From Escherichia phage vB_EcoM_phAPEC6: a stretch of DNA of 64,000 nucleotides. The stretch lies in sequence record MK817115.1; one strand, given 5' to 3'. Shown one piece after another: positions 1 to 59,440 of the stretch. Position 1 is the first letter of the stretch, and each line of letters starts with the position of its first letter. Below the pieces are notes generated by a model. It did not search any database. It saw only the letters and a list, made by a program, of their open reading frames with translations, and was not told the DNA's origin. Both the position numbers and the translations under genes were made by a program.

Positions 1-233
1 TAAATCCCATCCTCAGTTGGTTCAGGTTGGAATTGAGAAGGTGTAGTCATGAGCAAACGGTCAAATCCATTTTTAGTACTGTATCTGGTTGAATACCGTG
101 CAAACGGACCTACAGTTCGTGCAGGATCTAAGTTAGGTTCAATGTAACTAAATTTAAGTTCAAAACGATATACATACATAATTAAAATCCTCTAATTTAT
201 TAAGAGAATTATAACAAAAAAGGCTGACCGAAG

Positions 234-479
234 TCAACCTTTGTTTTGAAGTTCTTGAACTAATTGTCGTACTTCGTTAATATTTTTACACTGCTTTACA
301 GTGAAGTAATCATACTTACGACCATAGGTTCTTGGGTCATCACCTTCCATATACTGCTGCACATCAAAGATTTGTAAGTAGGGATGCTGCATAACACGAA
401 TATTATCACTTTGATAAATCAACATAATATCAATCCTTATATTTACACAAGCCACCAAAACTAGTTTCTTTAGCACCAC
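234..479 (-). CDS. hypothetical small protein (81 aa)
   Basis: ORF in track; tiled with neighbouring minus-strand genes; start may be an internal Met because 5' end overlaps the next gene. Confidence 0.45.
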   Translation of the reverse strand: MVLKKLVLVACVNIRIDIMLIYQSDNIRVMQHPYLQIFDVQQYMEGDDPRTYGRKYDYFTVKQCKNINEVRQLVQELQNKG

Positions 480-6293: not shown

Positions 6294-6321
6294 ATTATAC
6301 AGTACTGATATCTTCTGTCAA
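6294..6321 (-). promoter_or_regulatory. sigma70-type promoter (TTGACA, 16 nt, TATAAT)
   Basis: Reverse complement reads TTGACA gaagatatcagtactg TATAAT GTTTATATCAAA; same downstream box as 5945 promoter. Confidence 0.6.
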
Positions 6322-6827: not shown

Positions 6828-7616
6828 TTAAATGTTAGTAGTATAGTACTTGATTTCGTGTTGAATTGCAAGTTCTATTTGTTTATTGAAAAGAATTCCA
6901 AACTCTTTGATTGATTCACAATCGAATTCAATAGAAAAAGTATACTCTGGTACACGTACATTGTCAATACCCAAATACTCTTTTATGTAAATTTTAATGA
7001 GTTCACATAGTGCAGTACTAAGACATTGAATTTCAAAATGTTTTGCACCTTTGTCAAAATACTTGAATGCATCAATATCACCTACAATAAAACTATTCTT
7101 TAATGTAGTGAATAGGTTCTCAGGAAACACGGTAATAGGTGACATTGATTTAAGAATGTATGTATCTTTGGCATTCTTAATGTACTCAATGAAGCAGTAG
7201 TTGACGTCAGGCTCGATTGAACGATCCGCGTTATGATACCAGTGTTTAAACTCACTGTATTCAGCAAACTTATGCTGGCGTAATGCGTTACAATCTTCAC
7301 ACAGTGCAGTCATGTTCTCTTTATCATTACCGCCCTGAAGACAGTCCAGTACATTATGGTCTAACGTCATGCGTACAAGGCGTTTCCCTTTAAGTACATA
7401 AGGTCTGAATTTATAACGTTCTTTAGTACTGTGCTTGTGTAAAGTGAATACTACATTTGATTCACCACAACAATCACATTTAAAGCCATCACGTGACATT
7501 ACATGAATGAGTTTGCGTGTGTTCGGTCCAAACTCAGATTTAGTAATGTTATCCACAATTTCTGATGGTTGGTAATATTTTGAATTCCGTTGAATCAGTT
7601 CATCGATAGTGCTCAT
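6828..7616 (-). CDS. HNH endonuclease (262 aa)
   Basis: HNH-type motif: CDCCG ... TLDHN ... GGNDKENMTALCEDCN (Cys pair, His, Asn, Cys pair). Confidence 0.75.
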   Translation of the reverse strand: MSTIDELIQRNSKYYQPSEIVDNITKSEFGPNTRKLIHVMSRDGFKCDCCGESNVVFTLHKHSTKERYKFRPYVLKGKRLVRMTLDHNVLDCLQGGNDKENMTALCEDCNALRQHKFAEYSEFKHWYHNADRSIEPDVNYCFIEYIKNAKDTYILKSMSPITVFPENLFTTLKNSFIVGDIDAFKYFDKGAKHFEIQCLSTALCELIKIYIKEYLGIDNVRVPEYTFSIEFDCESIKEFGILFNKQIELAIQHEIKYYTTNI

Positions 7617-8053: not shown

Positions 8054-8117
8054 TGGATATTCCTTAATGGTTAATCATCCATCTCTTCGAGATGTCTGTT
8101 CGCTTCTAATACTACGT

Positions 8118-8146
8118 ATTCTACGCGAATGATTAATAACTGTCAA
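8118..8146 (-). promoter_or_regulatory. sigma70-type promoter (TTGACA, 17 nt, TAGAAT)
   Basis: Reverse complement reads TTGACA gttattaatcattcgcg TAGAAT. Confidence 0.5.
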
Positions 8147-8670
8147 GGACTTTTAATATTGACGGGATTTGAGGAAGGGATTTTTCTTCCCCCCACAAGG
8201 AGGGAAATTTGACGCTGATGGTATCAGAGCTATTGCATTGAAGATTACTCATAACGAGTGCGAAAGCGGGTCATCCTGTTTCTCTCTACTTCAGTTTCAT
8301 ATGACGGTCTACACTTTTAAACATAGTGTATCTTCATTAAGTATCTATGCAATCAAATACTTAATGTGAGTACTCAAATTTTGGACGCAACTTTCCTGTA
8401 CAAAATTCGATAACTCTCCCTTAGATAATTCGTAAGGTGTTATCCTTATATGTCTATCAAGGAACCACCAGCTATCCTAACGTGGTTCTTTATACAGCCG
8501 CATTGCCGTGAGGGGTTCAAACTATGCCCACATCTAACGGGTTTCTTTTGCTGTTCGCACTGTCGGACTGCTCAACTGCCCTCTACGTTTTCGAGTGGAT
8601 CAGGTACATGAATATCATGCCAACAGAATTGTACAAGATAATTATATCACAAACTTTTACTTCATCCCAT

Positions 8671-8695
8671 AAAAAAAGGTTGGCATAAGCCAACC
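8671..8695 (-). terminator. rho-independent terminator of sigma-factor gene
   Basis: 7-bp GC-rich hairpin ggttggc/gccaacc followed on minus strand by a run of 7 T. Confidence 0.65.
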
Positions 8696-8703
8696 CTTGT
8701 TCT

Positions 8704-9669
8704 TTAGAAATCTTCGTATTCGTACCCTTTTGCAAGTACTAACTTCTTAAGCTTTTGCATAGCTTCACTGTACTTTCGGTGTATTGATGAACGGGATTTA
8801 ACATATTTTCCATTATCATCAACAAAACCATTATCAGCAATCTCACGAAGCGTTTCAGGTTCATATTCACCTAGACCATGAACACGCTGGATAATCTCAC
8901 GTTCTTTAGTACTCAATTCGTTAGTTAGTTCATTGATAGCATAACGTAAAGGTGCACGGATACTATCAACATTGAGGTTAAAATCAGAAGCAGGTGAATG
9001 AATAATGTCACCTAATGTACCATCTGTAACACCGTCTAATGGTGCATCCAGTGAAGTGTATTCGCTTTGAAATAATAAACAATTATTAACATGCTGAATC
9101 TCAATCCCAGTACCCTCTGAGATTATTTCAGGTGTTGGGCGAACACCATGTTTACGCATATATTCCTGGCAGAATCTTTTTACTTTGATCTTATGAACAC
9201 TCATATAACGTGGGAAGTGTACCATATAGTTAGCGTCAGAACTTTCGTTATAAACTGTCATGTAAATACTAGAAGAAGCATAGGTAATGAACTTCACATT
9301 CTTATTAAGATCAAAGGTTTTTAGTGCTCTCATGAACCCCTCAACACCATATGAAATCTTATCTTCAAATGGGATATAACAAGTACATTTACTTGCTACA
9401 TCAATAATAAGTCCATAATTGTAACGAACTAACAGTTCAGTGTTTTTCTTTACATTGATACCAGCTTGAATATCACGAATTAGATCTTCATTGGAAACAT
9501 TTGGTGGTCGCTTAAGTGTAATATTATATTTGAAACTGCTTTGTACTTTACCTTCATTTTCATCTTTATCTTCAACGAAATCTAAGGCTTCTAGTGTGTT
9601 GACTTCTTCATTAGCAAAACATTCATCCAGAACTTCTTCGGCAATTGTATTTAAATCAAGCTTTTTCAC
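8704..9669 (-). CDS. sigma-70 family RNA polymerase sigma factor (321 aa)
   Basis: Region 2-like segment (LIRDIQAGINVKKNTELLVRYNYGLIIDVASK) and region 4 HTH-like C-terminus (TLREIADNGFVDDNGKYVKSRSSIHRKYSEAMQKLKK). Confidence 0.75.
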   Translation of the reverse strand: MKKLDLNTIAEEVLDECFANEEVNTLEALDFVEDKDENEGKVQSSFKYNITLKRPPNVSNEDLIRDIQAGINVKKNTELLVRYNYGLIIDVASKCTCYIPFEDKISYGVEGFMRALKTFDLNKNVKFITYASSSIYMTVYNESSDANYMVHFPRYMSVHKIKVKRFCQEYMRKHGVRPTPEIISEGTGIEIQHVNNCLLFQSEYTSLDAPLDGVTDGTLGDIIHSPASDFNLNVDSIRAPLRYAINELTNELSTKEREIIQRVHGLGEYEPETLREIADNGFVDDNGKYVKSRSSIHRKYSEAMQKLKKLVLAKGYEYEDF

Positions 9670-9690
9670 TTACATCTCCTAATGACGAAA

Positions 9691-10188
9691 TCAAAATCGA
9701 TATACATTAATATTATCATCTGTGAAGCAATCATGGTTATGCACATCCATGAAAGTACTAAACACTTTATCATATAAAGTTGTATGTTCTTCATGAATAG
9801 CAGCATCTAGCATGTATTCTCCACCACTTCCCATAAAGAAAGTGTAGTCTTCATGTAGATATTCAAGTTTTTTAATAAACTTTCCTTTAGTTAAAATCAT
9901 ATGAATAACATAATCTTTAGAAAGAAGCACACAATGGCAACTTAACTTTCTGTCAGGTATAACTGGTACTTTATTAATTAACCAATCCAGTACTTTATCA
10001 ATTTCACTTACTGACCCACTAGCACTGAATAAACGGTCATGTACATATAAAGTTTTTTGATTAACAACTCCATATTGATATTTTGGTCTTAGTGGGAAAA
10101 AACCAAATAAGTTTCGTGGTATAGTTGACGTAACTCTAGAATCGGTAATCAATAAATTTAATCGTTTATCAATATAAACAGTTGTCAT
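9691..10188 (-). CDS. HslV-like Ntn-hydrolase peptidase (proteasome beta-like), 165 aa
   Basis: N-terminal MTT (Thr nucleophile after Met removal), LYxxDxxF...G segment and GSGG motif aligned by eye to HslV. Confidence 0.6.
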   Translation of the reverse strand: MTTVYIDKRLNLLITDSRVTSTIPRNLFGFFPLRPKYQYGVVNQKTLYVHDRLFSASGSVSEIDKVLDWLINKVPVIPDRKLSCHCVLLSKDYVIHMILTKGKFIKKLEYLHEDYTFFMGSGGEYMLDAAIHEEHTTLYDKVFSTFMDVHNHDCFTDDNINVYRF

Positions 10189-10189
10189 A

Positions 10190-10609
10190 TTAAACCTTAT
10201 CTAAGAATTTATCGTATATATAAAATTCTTTATCGGTGAATACATTAATTCTAGTATCGAATCTTTGCATCGTGTTCATATACAATGAACTTTTTAAATA
10301 AAAATACAAAGCAACAAATTCTGATATATGCATATTCTTTTTATTGTTACATAAATTCTTTAGCATTTTGATGCTATCAAATTCTTCTTTATCAAATCTG
10401 TACTGGTAAAAATTGTATCTATTGGATCGGCACTCATAGATACGAAGTGCCATTATATCAATACATTCTTTAGATTTACAGTACTTATTCAATACGTCAT
10501 AATCACCCGTACATAATGCTACAAAGATTTTATGTGCAAGCGTAGCTTTGCCCTCAATCGTATAATAGCCAAAAAATTTAATGATTAAGTACTGAATGAA
10601 TGTAATCAT
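10190..10609 (-). CDS. hypothetical protein (139 aa)
   Basis: ORF in track. Confidence 0.55.
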   Translation of the reverse strand: MITFIQYLIIKFFGYYTIEGKATLAHKIFVALCTGDYDVLNKYCKSKECIDIMALRIYECRSNRYNFYQYRFDKEEFDSIKMLKNLCNNKKNMHISEFVALYFYLKSSLYMNTMQRFDTRINVFTDKEFYIYDKFLDKV

Positions 10610-10614
10610 TTGAT

Positions 10615-10875
10615 TTAGAATTTCTCCGAAATTACTAGAGTGTCATCATAATCTTCTGCAATCTCATGAAGAACTTTTAAGTTACTTTCACCAGAAACGC
10701 TTTGTACTTCGTTCAAAAGATAGTTTAGATCAACTTTAGTTACTTTTTCTGAATCAAATACACAGAAAGTCAATTCAGCGTTTGGACAGATCTTCTTCAG
10801 ATTATCAGCAACAACTTGTTTGAAGTTGAAAGATGGGGAAGCAACCAGGTTAACTGCAACGAGAATAGATTTCAT
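10615..10875 (-). CDS. hypothetical protein (86 aa)
   Basis: ORF in track. Confidence 0.5.
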   Translation of the reverse strand: MKSILVAVNLVASPSFNFKQVVADNLKKICPNAELTFCVFDSEKVTKVDLNYLLNEVQSVSGESNLKVLHEIAEDYDDTLVISEKF

Positions 10876-10949
10876 AATGTTTTCCTTTTTAGCTGATAAT
10901 TAAATTAGGAGCACATTGTACTCCATATTATTTGTTATGTAAAATACTT

Positions 10950-11201: not shown

Positions 11202-11260
11202 AAGTTCCTTACTCTAATTTGTTTTTAACAAAATAATTATATATAACATACTAAATTATG

Positions 11261-11686
11261 TCAAGTATTTTTAGTACCTTCTTCTGCCATTTTTGTGATA
11301 TACCAATTAAGTACTGATTTGTGTACCATAAAAAATGTGAATGCAAATATAGCAATAGCTGCTGATGTAACACTATTAGATAATGACCCAAGTTGGATGT
11401 TAGTACCTAAAATAACAATAAATGGATACAACACAATCAATCTACTGTAAGGTTCGTCTCCAGTATCACGGAGAAATCCAAGCCTTTCATGATCAGTATC
11501 CATAGTGACAATTGGACAGAACATAAGTGCAGACATAAGAGCAATACCAATTTGTGCTACATTGGAAATTGTAAACCACAAAGGATTTAAACCATATGAA
11601 ATATTATTTTCTGTACAGTAGTAACCAAACGAATTGAATGCACAAACTAAAAATACAAAAATACAAATCTTATTATAGCCTCTCAT
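11261..11686 (-). CDS. hypothetical membrane protein (141 aa)
   Basis: Several hydrophobic helices. Confidence 0.55.
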   Translation of the reverse strand: MRGYNKICIFVFLVCAFNSFGYYCTENNISYGLNPLWFTISNVAQIGIALMSALMFCPIVTMDTDHERLGFLRDTGDEPYSRLIVLYPFIVILGTNIQLGSLSNSVTSAAIAIFAFTFFMVHKSVLNWYITKMAEEGTKNT

Positions 11687-22611: not shown

Positions 22612-23219
<608 letters not shown>

Positions 23220-24229: not shown

Positions 24230-24306
24230 TGGCCGAGGTAGAGGGACTTGAACCCCCAACCTAGAGATTAGAATTCTCTTGCACTATCCAATTGTGCTAT
24301 ACCCCG
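24230..24306 (-). tRNA. tRNA-Arg (anticodon UCU)
   Basis: Cloverleaf: D-arm GCAC/GTGC, anticodon stem AGAGA/TCTCT, loop ATTCTAA, T-loop TTCAAGT, encoded CCA. Confidence 0.8.
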
Positions 24307-24310
24307 TATT

Positions 24311-24426
<116 letters not shown>

Positions 24427-24459
24427 ATGTTATGTCCCATTATATAATGAATTAATGAT

Positions 24460-59347: not shown

Positions 59348-59408
59348 TTGATTTCCTTATCGTGTCTCTTTGTCCTAAAACATTGTATCATCAATGTCAT
59401 TTTTGTCT

Positions 59409-59440
59409 CAAAAAAAATATCGGGACATCTAGTCCCGATA
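59409..59440. terminator. bidirectional rho-independent terminator
   Basis: Perfect 8-bp hairpin atcgggac/gtcccgat flanked by A-run and T-run. Confidence 0.7.

What the first reader, a model, noticed from the sequence alone, without database searches (positions are those of the whole stretch)
8704..9669. Full-length sigma-70 family sigma factor in a T4-like context
The 321-aa protein has recognisable region 2 and region 4 segments, unlike the minimal gp55-type late sigma of T4. It has its own terminator and sits next to the HslV-like gene. It may redirect host RNA polymerase to a phage-specific promoter class, which should be distinct from the TTGACA/TATAAT promoters catalogued here.
Basis: partly seen in the sequence, partly recalled or inferred. 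Interest (0 to 1): 0.5.

Follow-up and report, generated by a model that had tools for sequence, protein, structure and literature searches.

The report
Jumbo-phage sigma-70-type transcription factor
This is a real gene of a 350-kb E. coli jumbo phage, already annotated in near-identical genomes, that encodes a complete sigma-70-type factor; it most likely steers the host RNA polymerase to the phage's middle-stage promoters, but that role has not been tested experimentally.

Summary
Window 8704..9669 (-) encodes a 321-aa sigma-70-family protein with regions 1.2, 2, 3 and 4, a Shine-Dalgarno site and GTG start, and its own terminator. It lies downstream of a proteasome/HslV-fold gene. The window is an Asteriusvirus jumbo phage (121Q/PBECO4/G17/Sharanji, about 99.5% identical), where this gene is already annotated as a sigma factor. 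Phage sigmas close to cellular RpoD are already described for such group 2 jumbo phages. The phage also encodes a separate gp55-type late sigma outside the window.

New here:
- The family lacks the sigma70 W433/W434 pair.
- It carries a conserved beta-hairpin insert inside the region 4.2 helix-turn-helix.
- The genome has three promoter classes:
  - early, TTGACA-N17-TATAAT;
  - middle, G(G/A)GACA-N16-TGnTATAAT;
  - late, TATAAATA.
- The middle-class -35 box differs between phage lineages in step with the sigma's recognition helix.

Best model: host sigma70 transcribes the sigma gene early, and the phage sigma then reads the middle promoters, including that of the gp55-like gene. This would replace T4's MotA/AsiA, which have no detectable homologues here. 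The identity is near certain; the role is inferred (about 0.55).

Seen in passing: a conserved, covarying 475-nt RNA next to the gene, and a roughly 5-fold (AGTACT) to 18-fold (CAGTACTG) excess of this palindrome.

The parts
8704..9669 (-). Coding sequence of the 321-aa sigma-70-family factor (36.8 kDa, pI 5.3), GTG start
9676..9680 (-). Shine-Dalgarno AGGAG, 6 nt before the GTG start
   Evidence: sequence
9505..9669 (-). Residues 1-55: conserved N-terminal motif MKKLxLNxIxxEVLDExF followed by an acidic linker (14 D/E against 7 K/R). Low model confidence. There is no canonical region 1.1.
9454..9504 (-). Residues 56-72: region 1.2-like helix
9220..9453 (-). Residues 73-150: region 2. F419, K426, F427, T429 and Y430 of sigma70 are kept. 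W433/W434 become S/S, Q437 becomes M, T440 becomes Y and R441 becomes N.
8992..9213 (-). Residues 153-226: region 3. Sigma70 H455 becomes Y and E458 becomes V.
8725..8949 (-). Residues 241-315: region 4
8800..8826 (-). Residues 282-290 (FVDDNGKYV): family-specific insert between the two helices of the region 4.2 helix-turn-helix. It is predicted as a beta-hairpin, with pLDDT about 87-89 in the surrounding blocks.
8770..8799 (-). Residues 291-300 (KSRSSIHRKY): region 4.2 recognition helix, equivalent to sigma70 582-591. R584 is kept, R588 becomes H and Q589 becomes R.
8675..8698 (-). Intrinsic terminator ending the sigma transcription unit
   Evidence: also annotated in phage G17
9691..10188 (-). 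Upstream gene of the same unit: 165-aa HslV/proteasome-fold protein with an N-terminal Thr. It lies directly upstream of the sigma gene in vB_Ec-M-J, RaK2 and Munch as well.
10190..10875 (-). Two further upstream genes of the unit (139 aa and 86 aa, function unknown). The 86-aa protein has a homologue at the head of the RaK2 unit.
10915..10943 (-). Sigma70-type promoter TTTACA-17-TACAAT, the nearest upstream promoter of the unit
11236..11264 (-). Consensus early promoter TTGACA-17-TATAAT, one gene further upstream
8641..8668 (-). Middle-class (class C) promoter variant GGGATG-N16-TATAAT with TGn, immediately after the sigma terminator
24411..24438 (-). Class C promoter GGGACA-N16-(TGn)TATAAT in front of the tRNA cluster; a candidate target of the sigma
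59382..59409 (-). Class C promoter GAGACA-N16-(TGn)TACAAT before a 654-aa gene; a candidate target

Best explanation
The gene encodes a phage sigma factor of the sigma-70 family that replaces host sigma70 on the E. coli core RNA polymerase.

Shown:
- It has regions 1.2, 2, 3 and 4 and a sigma-like predicted fold.
- It belongs to a distinct clade restricted to RaK2-like jumbo phages.
- It lies in the early gene array, behind sigma70-consensus promoters.
- The genome has three promoter classes.

Inferred, in order:
1. Host sigma70 holoenzyme transcribes the unit (86-aa gene, 139-aa gene, HslV-like gene, sigma gene) soon after infection.
2. The new sigma binds core polymerase and directs it to the middle class, an A-rich stretch followed by TG(G/A)GACAA-N12-TG(A/C)TATAAT. 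Its region 4.2 helix (S-R-S-S-I-H-R-K-Y), next to the beta-hairpin insert, reads the G(G/A)GACA box. Its region 2 reads TATAAT.
3. These promoters drive replication and recombination genes, the tRNA cluster, four copies of a large structured RNA, and the gp55-type late sigma gene.
4. The gp55-type sigma then reads the TATAAATA late promoters.

On this model the protein does the job that MotA and AsiA do in T4, by sigma replacement as in Bacillus phage SPO1.
For: Identity.

Distinct clade: 18 representatives (50%-identity clusters) with E from 1e-157 to 5e-29, then a gap to cellular sigmas at about 1e-20.

Early context: consensus promoters at 11264..11236 and 10943..10915 and a terminator at 8698..8675. 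In CBB the sigma gene also lies in the predicted early region (PMC5259590).

Promoter classes, counted against order-2 Markov simulations:
- TTGACA-16..18-TATAAT: 31 sites against 0.5 simulated.
- G[GA]GACA-N16-TA[TC]AAT: 17 sites, all on the coding strand, 15 intergenic, against 0.1 simulated. G at -14 in 17 of 17.
- TATAAATA: 15 sites against 55 simulated, 11 of them intergenic and lying before structural genes.

A class C site lies 85 nt upstream of the gp55-type gene. That gene hits PHROG 12791 at 2.4e-154 and PHROG 234 at 8e-18.

No MotA or AsiA homologue was found.

Covariation between the recognition helix and the -35 box:
- Asteriusvirus and Munch share R584, H588 and R589, and both use G(G/A)GAC(A/G). 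Their sigmas are only 37% identical, and Munch is closer to CBB (45%).
- RaK2 has R584, H588 and Y589, and uses TGAACA.
- CBB, BF and XbC2 have K584, S588 and R589, and use GAAAC(G/A/C).

The box-by-phage count table is nearly diagonal: 21, 10, 8+2 and 7+2 on the diagonal, 0 to 5 off it. The -10 element is the same in all, and the hosts are all Gammaproteobacteria, mostly Enterobacterales, whose sigma70 I take to be nearly identical (established knowledge, not tested here).

CBB's TGAAACG class before DNA-synthesis genes and before its gp55-like gene was reported independently (PMC5259590).
Against: - No expression, binding or transcription data were found for this protein or any relative.
- The class C -10 region, TGnTATAAT, is an ideal host sigma70 extended -10 element. 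Yet the phage sigma lacks the sigma70 residues that read it: W433/W434, Q437, T440, H455 and E458.
- The covariation rests on four lineages with three distinct states. An unidentified phage activator could covary in the same way.
- The promoter sets for BF, XbC2 and vB_Ec-M-J are single sites.
- The RaK2 gp55 gene has no obvious TGAACA box upstream.
- Pfam r2 and r4 are just below their curated cutoffs.
Confidence: 0.55

Rival explanations
1. The middle-class promoters are read by host sigma70 through their extended -10 element. An unidentified phage DNA-binding activator recognises the lineage-specific box at -35. The 321-aa sigma serves some other, smaller promoter set that was not detected here.
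For: The TGnTATAAT of class C is a perfect sigma70 element, and the phage sigma lacks sigma70's TG- and -12-reading residues. T4 middle promoters work this way, with sigma70 plus MotA/AsiA (established knowledge). The genome holds hundreds of uncharacterised small early proteins. CBB has an HTH protein gene just upstream of its sigma gene.
Against: No MotA or AsiA homologue was found. Intergenic k-mer enrichment showed no fourth conserved promoter-like motif that such a sigma could use. The box tracks the sigma recognition helix across lineages, including the Munch/Asteriusvirus agreement despite 37% identity.
Confidence: 0.25
2. The protein acts mainly as a competitor or decoy. It occupies core polymerase, or holds it in an inactive form, to shut off host and early phage transcription, without a dedicated promoter class.
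For: It is made from the early region. It has an acidic N-terminal segment of unknown role. Its DNA-reading residues differ from those of sigma70.
Against: The regions that contact DNA (2.3/2.4, 3.0 and the 4.2 helix) are well conserved within each lineage, and the A-11 pocket residues are kept. A pure decoy would not need these. The helix/box covariation would be left unexplained.
Confidence: 0.1
3. The protein works at late promoters, either with the gp55-type sigma or in its place.
For: Late promoters of the TATAAATA type have no -35 element and need only a region-2-like reader (established knowledge for T4). No gp33 or gp45 homologue was detected in CBB by its authors (PMC5259590).
Against: A well conserved gp55-type protein is present. 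It is 73-74% identical in RaK2 and CBB. The late motif matches the T4 gp55 motif. A complete region 4 with lineage-specific changes would have no role at promoters that lack a -35 element.
Confidence: 0.05

Closest known systems
RpoD-like sigma factors of group 2 jumbo phages (121Q gp167, PBECO4, G17_00146, Sharanji RpoD, RaK2 ORF244, GAP32, CBB_513)
   Same: It is the same protein or its orthologues: 99.4-99.7% identical in Asteriusvirus records, 43% in RaK2 and 35% in CBB/GAP32. All are annotated as RNA polymerase sigma factor. The class is described in PMC7824862 and PMC5259590.
   Different: Nothing differs in the gene itself. None of these has been tested experimentally in the papers found.
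Bacillus phage SPO1 gp28 (middle sigma), followed by gp33/gp34 (late)
   Same: A phage-encoded sigma-70-family protein, made early by the host holoenzyme, replaces the host sigma to switch on the next temporal class (established knowledge; also the abstract of PMC13401047).
   Different: No detectable close sequence relationship. SPO1 promoters differ from the host's at both elements. Here only the -35 box differs, and the late step uses a gp55-type sigma.
T4 MotA/AsiA sigma appropriation at middle promoters
   Same: Same place in the programme and a similar promoter layout: a sigma70-type -10 element, often with TGn, plus a phage-specific box in place of the -35 element. The middle class also drives the late-sigma gene.
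   Different: Different proteins and a different mechanism. No MotA or AsiA homologues are present. Here a whole sigma is proposed to be exchanged.
E. coli sigmaS / sigma70 (group 1-2 sigmas)
   Same: Same domain order (1.2, 2, 3, 4). These are the best profile and structure matches.
   Different: Scores lie far below every equivalog cutoff. There is no W433/W434 pair. The residues of regions 2.4, 3.0 and 4.2 are altered. Region 4.2 has a beta-hairpin insert. A conserved N-terminal motif unrelated to region 1.1 is present.
T4 gp55 late sigma
   Same: Also a phage-encoded specificity subunit for the host core polymerase.
   Different: gp55 is a minimal factor that resembles region 2 only. This phage has its own gp55-type gene elsewhere (Sharanji gp368).

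Membership tests
Sigma-70 family (Pfam Sigma70_r2/r3/r4; NCBIfam TIGR02937) | Region 2 (core binding and -10 recognition) | tested here: met
   Pfam r2 gives E 7e-5, 23.0 bits against a cutoff of 24.0, so it is marginal. Residues 74-150 align to sigma70 373-450, with D403, G408, G411, F419, K426, F427, T429 and Y430 kept. TIGR02937 passes its cutoff.
Sigma-70 family (Pfam Sigma70_r2/r3/r4; NCBIfam TIGR02937) | Region 3 | tested here: met
   Pfam r3 gives E 2e-9, 37.8 bits against a cutoff of 25.3.
Sigma-70 family (Pfam Sigma70_r2/r3/r4; NCBIfam TIGR02937) | Region 4 helix-turn-helix | tested here: met
   Pfam r4 gives E 3e-5, 23.8 bits against 24.1, over profile positions 4-28 only. The AlphaFold model shows helices 241-249, 254-264, 274-280 and 293-314 with a hairpin inserted at 282-290. 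Full-length sigma chains are the best fold matches.
Sigma-70 family (Pfam Sigma70_r2/r3/r4; NCBIfam TIGR02937) | Binds core RNA polymerase and confers promoter-specific initiation | not testable with these tools
   Needs biochemistry. The only support is indirect: conserved region 2.2 residues and promoter covariation.
Primary / RpoD-RpoS type sigma (groups 1-2) | Score above the NCBIfam equivalog cutoffs; W433/W434 pair; Q437/T440; H455/E458; R584/E585/R588/Q589 | tested here: not met
   RpoD_Cterm scores 88 bits against a cutoff of 354, and RpoS 70 against 379. W433/W434 are S/S and are absent in the whole clade. Q437 is M, T440 is Y, H455 is Y, E458 is V, E585 is S, R588 is H and Q589 is R.
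ECF (group 4) sigma | Only regions 2 and 4, no region 3 | tested here: not met
   Region 3 is present and significant.
T4 gp55-type late sigma (PHROG 234 / 12791) | Profile match to the gp55 families; about 185-280 aa; resembles region 2 only | tested here: not met
   The only PHROG hit of the 321-aa protein is 351. The gp55 families are hit by a different gene, L004:10052-10891.
Phage sigma clade of RaK2-like jumbo phages (PHROG 351 subset) | Conserved N-terminus MKKLxLNxIxxEVLDExF; KFSTYAT..Y(R/N) in region 2.4; insert G(F/Y)xDxxGK in region 4.2 | tested here: met
   Alignments A1 and A2 and the seven-phage alignment. PHROG 351 gives E 2.6e-60. The clade is separated from cellular sigmas.

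The most novel reading that the evidence does not exclude
The protein is the middle-gene specificity factor of RaK2-like jumbo phages. Its region 4, which carries a clade-specific beta-hairpin inside the helix-turn-helix, reads -35 boxes that have co-evolved with it in each phage lineage. This would be a sigma-replacement counterpart of T4's MotA/AsiA.

It would also belong to a conserved module of HslV-fold Thr-protease gene, sigma gene and a large ornate RNA gene. The RNA is itself transcribed from a middle-class promoter, so the protease or the RNA might control sigma activity or lifetime.
Probability: 0.4. Interest if true: 0.6.

Novelty: already known. Interest (0 to 1): 0.35.

Why it matters
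The gene itself is not news. It is annotated in a score of near-identical genomes, and phage-encoded sigma factors are cited as a defining feature of group 2 jumbo phages.

What would matter is the mechanism. No one appears to have tested how RaK2-like jumbo phages switch from early to middle transcription. These phages have no polymerase of their own and no MotA/AsiA.

The match between box and recognition helix across lineages gives a concrete hypothesis that can be tested by swapping parts. The system is easy to work with (E. coli host, E. coli core polymerase).

A region 4.2 with a hairpin inside its helix-turn-helix would also be a new way of reading a -35 element.

Tried and rejected
- Rfam on the whole window and on the gene-free gap found only tRNAs or chance-level matches.
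- K-mer statistics with a maximal-order Markov background were uninformative. An order-2 background was needed.
- The hugely over-represented palindrome (C)AGTACT(G) was considered as a promoter element for the new sigma and rejected. Its flanks are symmetric with no information beyond +/-1 nt. It occurs in all three codon phases, and three quarters of the CAGTACTG sites are inside genes.
- Late TATAAATA promoters were considered as the target and set aside once a gp55-type gene was found. tblastn with T4 gp55 showed no Asteriusvirus hit among the 60 of 2026 matching records listed. A weak local phmmer hit (E 0.053) plus PHROG scanning was needed.
- MotA and AsiA: the best local hits were E 0.23 and E 0.013. 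The latter belongs to an unrelated PHROG.
- The second word-indexed homologue search, run with the clade alignment, recovered only two more clade members.
- Plain blastn found no similarity between the Asteriusvirus and RaK2 gaps after the sigma gene. A profile search did.
- The RaK2 gp55 upstream region shows no clear TGAACA box.
- The four PA5oct ncRNAs (PMC7318152) could not be linked to the RNA found here.
Full report
**1. The observation**

AGGAG lies 6 nt upstream of the start (sequence). The N-terminus MKKL(D/N)L is conserved in all relatives, which confirms the start.

Profile evidence:
- Pfam Sigma70_r3 is clearly significant (E 2e-9, above the cutoff).
- Sigma70_r2 (23.0 bits against 24.0) and Sigma70_r4 (23.8 against 24.1) fall just short of their cutoffs. 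Sigma70_r4 matches only profile positions 4-28 of 50.
- The sigma-70 superfamily model TIGR02937 passes its cutoff, and RpoD_Cterm reaches E 6e-25.
- PHROG 351 'RNA polymerase sigma factor' gives E 2.6e-60.
- Solved RpoD, SigA and RpoS chains match at up to E 5e-17. Residues 74-279 align to E. coli sigma70 373-578.

An AlphaFold model built on 24 clade members has mean pLDDT 73.7. The segments for regions 1.2, 2, 3 and 4 are confident, while residues 1-50 and the 3.2 linker are disordered. Its best PDB matches are full-length sigmaS and sigmaA chains in holoenzyme complexes (E 5e-11).

The terminator at 8698..8675 is real.

**2. Where the window comes from, and what is already known**

The region is 99.0-99.6% identical to Escherichia phages slurp01, G17, Sharanji, 121Q, JP4 and others, and 98.7% to PBECO4 (genus Asteriusvirus, about 350 kb). 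The protein is 99.4-99.7% identical to genes annotated 'RNA polymerase sigma factor' in those records, including 121Q gene 167 and G17_00146.

Orthologues occur in:
- the vB_Ec-M-J group (60% identity);
- RaK2 and K64-1 (43%);
- Munch (37%);
- CBB, GAP32, BF and the Yersinia and Erwinia phages (35%);
- Xanthomonas XbC2 (31%).

Iyer et al. (PMC7824862) describe group 2 jumbo phages as lacking a polymerase of their own. They carry two kinds of sigma, a minimal one and one 'close to the cellular RpoD'. The Sharanji paper calls the gene a hallmark of the group (PMC11895373). I found no experimental work on any member.

**3. Anatomy of the protein**

An exhaustive search of 1.8 billion representatives shows a separate clade. 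Eighteen representatives (50%-identity clusters) score between E 1e-157 and 5e-29. After a gap come ordinary cellular sigmas from about 1e-20.

Against E. coli sigma70:
- The core-binding region 2.2 pattern D-x-I-Q-x-G-x-x-G-L is largely kept across the clade (Q406 is S in this phage).
- The A-11 pocket residues F419, K426, F427, T429 and Y430 are kept.
- W433/W434 are S/S, and no clade member has the tryptophan pair.
- Q437 is M, T440 is Y and R441 is N.
- The residues that read the extended -10 TG, H455 and E458, are Y and V.
- Region 4.2 has a clade-wide insert, G(F/Y)xDxxGKxxx, between the two helices of the helix-turn-helix. The model shows it as a beta-hairpin at residues 282-290.
- The recognition helix follows: KSRSSIHRKY, residues 291-300, equivalent to sigma70 582-591. 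The insert explains the half-length Pfam r4 match.
- The first 20 residues (MKKLxLNxIxxEVLDExF) are conserved and are followed by an acidic linker. This is not a canonical region 1.1.

The protein scores far below every NCBIfam equivalog cutoff. It is therefore a member of the sigma-70 family, but it is not an RpoD, RpoS, FliA or ECF orthologue.

**4. The phage also has a gp55-type sigma**

I rebuilt a pseudo-genome from Sharanji pieces plus the window. A weak local hit of T4 gp55 (E 0.053) pointed to a 279-aa gene next to the gp46/gp47 homologues. It matches PHROG 12791 'sigma factor for late transcription' at 2.4e-154, and the T4 gp55 family PHROG 234 at 8e-18. It is annotated as gp55 in RaK2 and CBB.

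The 321-aa protein is therefore an additional factor, not a substitute for the late sigma.

**5. Promoter classes**

Counts were compared with order-2 Markov simulations.

| Class | Pattern | Observed | Simulated | Location |
|---|---|---|---|---|
| Early | TTGACA-16..18-TATAAT | 31, all on the coding strand | 0.5 | Mostly in the arrays of small genes |
| Early (second family) | AAAAAGTACTTGCA-N16-GTATAAT | 20 | 1.1 | Repeated units at 16-35 kb |
| Middle (class C) | G[GA]GACA-N16-TA[TC]AAT | 17, all on the coding strand, 15 intergenic | 0.1 | See below |
| Late | TATAAATA | 15, of which 11 intergenic | 55 | Before capsid, portal, sheath and baseplate genes |

The full class C consensus is an A-rich stretch followed by TG(G/A)GACAA-N12-(g)TG(A/C)TATAAT. 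G at -14 is present in 17 of 17 sites. Class C sites precede replication and recombination genes, the tRNA cluster (window 24411..24438), four non-coding RNA genes, and the gp55-type gene, which lies 85 nt downstream of its site.

TATAAATA is avoided genome-wide, which fits a signal that is selected against outside promoters.

Intergenic k-mer enrichment gave no further conserved promoter-like motif.

The sigma gene has no class C or late promoter. It lies behind TTTACA-17-TACAAT (10943..10915) and a consensus TTGACA-17-TATAAT (11264..11236), and it ends at its own terminator.

The same three-class scheme was published for CBB and GAP32: RpoD-like early promoters, with the sigma gene in that early region; a 'divergent RpoD-like' class with -35 TGAAACG before DNA-synthesis genes and before the gp55-like gene; and ATAAATA late motifs (PMC5259590). 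The passages I read do not say which factor reads the divergent class.

**6. Which factor reads the middle class?**

No MotA or AsiA homologue is detectable.

I compared promoter samples and sigma sequences across lineages. The architecture, box-N16/17-TGnTATAAT, is the same everywhere, but the box is lineage-specific.

| Lineage | -35 box (sites found) | Recognition helix (sigma70 583-591) |
|---|---|---|
| Asteriusvirus | G(G/A)GAC(A/G), 21 | S R S S I H R K Y |
| vB_Ec-M-J | GGGACA, 1 | A R S S L H R K Y |
| Munch | G(G/A)GAC(A/G), 7, plus GGGATG, 2 | S R T S L H R C Y |
| RaK2 | TGAAC(A/G), 10 | V R G T L H Y K F |
| CBB / BF / XbC2 | GAAACN, 8, plus GGAATG, 2 (CBB sample; BF and XbC2 add one TGAAAC site each) | S K A T L S R R Y |

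Off-diagonal counts in the box-by-phage table are 0-5.

Munch's sigma is closer overall to CBB's (45%) than to the Asteriusvirus one (37%). Yet it shares both the helix residues (R584, H588, R589) and the box with Asteriusvirus.

The hosts' sigma70 proteins are, to my knowledge, nearly identical, so a lineage-specific box points to a phage-encoded reader. The sigma is the only recognisable candidate. An Arg at the position of Q589 is a reasonable reader of the extra G's at the 5' end of the box; that last step is inference.

Against this: the -10 part is an ideal sigma70 extended -10 element, and the phage sigma lacks sigma70's TG- and -12-reading residues. An unknown activator working with host sigma70 therefore remains a serious rival.

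I put the sigma-replacement model at about 0.55, the activator model at 0.25, a decoy role at 0.10 and a late role at 0.05.

**7. Surroundings**

*The upstream gene.* The 165-aa gene at 9691..10188 has no Pfam hit. It matches PHROG 1040 'HslV family' (E 1.3e-6). Its model (pLDDT 82.7) is most similar to HslV, 20S proteasome beta subunits and connectase. Met-Thr-Thr at the N-terminus and a Gly-Ser-Gly motif are invariant. Homologues lie directly upstream of the sigma gene in vB_Ec-M-J, RaK2 (E 2e-54) and Munch (E 4e-22). The pairing is therefore conserved across lineages whose sigmas are only 30-60% identical to one another.

*The downstream gap.* The 650-bp gene-free stretch at 8054..8703 holds a class C-like promoter (8641..8668). 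Behind it lies a GC-richer sequence of about 475 nt with the following properties:
- It is about 70% identical at the DNA level in CBB, GAP32, BF, Munch and XbC2, where the sigma protein is only 31-37% identical.
- It has four paralogues in this genome. The other three follow canonical class C promoters; the window copy follows the GGGATG variant.
- It matches no Rfam family.
- A seven-sequence alignment gives 80 consensus pairs, 39 of them with compensatory double changes. 95% of cells are paired, against 36-45% when the partners are slid, and none of 500 shuffles reaches the observed values.
- A profile of it finds a copy immediately after the RaK2 sigma gene (E 3.4e-30).

This is a large structured RNA of unknown function. 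It appears to be undescribed, in that it matches no Rfam family and turned up in none of the papers I searched.

**8. Verdict**

The finding is correct and ordinary at the level at which it was stated: an already annotated phage sigma-70-family gene of a known kind. Its likely role as the middle-transcription specificity factor is a reasonable hypothesis and easy to test. The by-products, namely the covarying box/helix pairs, the hairpin in region 4.2, the neighbouring RNA family and the AGTACT excess, are more interesting than the gene call itself.

Noticed in passing
window 8160..8634 (-), within the gene-free gap 8054..8703: A structured non-coding RNA of about 475 nt lies behind a class C-like promoter.
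- It is about 70% identical at the DNA level in distant jumbo phages whose sigma proteins are 31-37% identical.
- The genome holds 4 paralogues; the other three follow canonical class C promoters.
- It matches no Rfam family.
- 39 of 80 consensus pairs show compensatory changes. 95% of cells are paired, against 36-45% in slid controls.
- It lies immediately after the sigma gene in RaK2 and vB_Ec-M-J as well.
Its function is unknown.
   Followed up: partly
whole window (26 sites, e.g. 6300..6307, 22818..22825) and the whole genome: The palindrome CAGTACTG occurs 26 times in the window against 0.66 expected, and 197 times in the genome against about 11 expected. AGTACT occurs 899 times against 184 expected. 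The flanks are symmetric, and the sites fall in all codon phases and mostly inside genes. In about 16-20 early promoters it fills the spacer next to the -10 element (TTGACA-N8-CAGTACTG-TATAAT). This suggests a site for a dimeric DNA-binding protein. It also occurs next to the RaK2 capsid-gene late promoter.
   Followed up: partly
whole genome (pseudo-genome built from Sharanji pieces plus the window): Several 6-bp palindromes are completely absent: CCATGG 0 against 71 expected, CGTACG 0 against 36, AGCGCT 0 against 15, CTCGAG 0 against 9. This is a strong restriction-site avoidance pattern.
   Followed up: no
window 9691..10188 (-): A 165-aa protein with a proteasome/HslV-type Ntn-hydrolase fold and an invariant N-terminal Thr. 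It forms a conserved gene pair with the sigma gene in Asteriusvirus, RaK2 and Munch. A functional link, such as control of sigma turnover, is pure speculation.
   Followed up: partly
outside the window: Sharanji 196052..196891 (L004:10052-10891, -): A gp55-type late sigma gene next to the gp46/gp47 homologues. It is annotated only as 'hypothetical protein' in Sharanji and is preceded by a class C promoter.
   Followed up: yes
window 24411..24438 (-), upstream of the tRNAs at 24233..24400: The tRNA cluster is driven by a perfect class C promoter (GGGACA-N16-TGTGATATAAT). The tRNAs would therefore be middle-class transcripts.
   Followed up: no
window 222..239 (-); about 9-11 copies genome-wide: A repeated terminator hairpin, GGGTTGAC-TTCG-GTCAGCCC plus a T run, is followed directly by TG(C/T)TATAAT. 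The hairpin's TTGACT can thus double as the -35 element of the next promoter, making a fused terminator-promoter cassette.
   Followed up: no
outside the window: genome 16-35 kb (L002): About 18-20 near-identical promoter and leader cassettes, AAAAAGTACTTGCA-N16-GTATAATGTTTTACAT...GGGG, each placed before a small gene. These are probably very strong immediate-early units.
   Followed up: no
L014 3767..3973 (RaK2 ORF245): The annotated RaK2 ORF245 lies inside the RNA homologue found by the profile search, so it is probably not a protein-coding gene.
   Followed up: no
window 6828..7616 (-): A 262-aa HNH endonuclease gene (PHROG 35175, E 1e-187) lies about 0.5 kb downstream of the RNA gene. No interrupted host gene was seen.
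   Followed up: no
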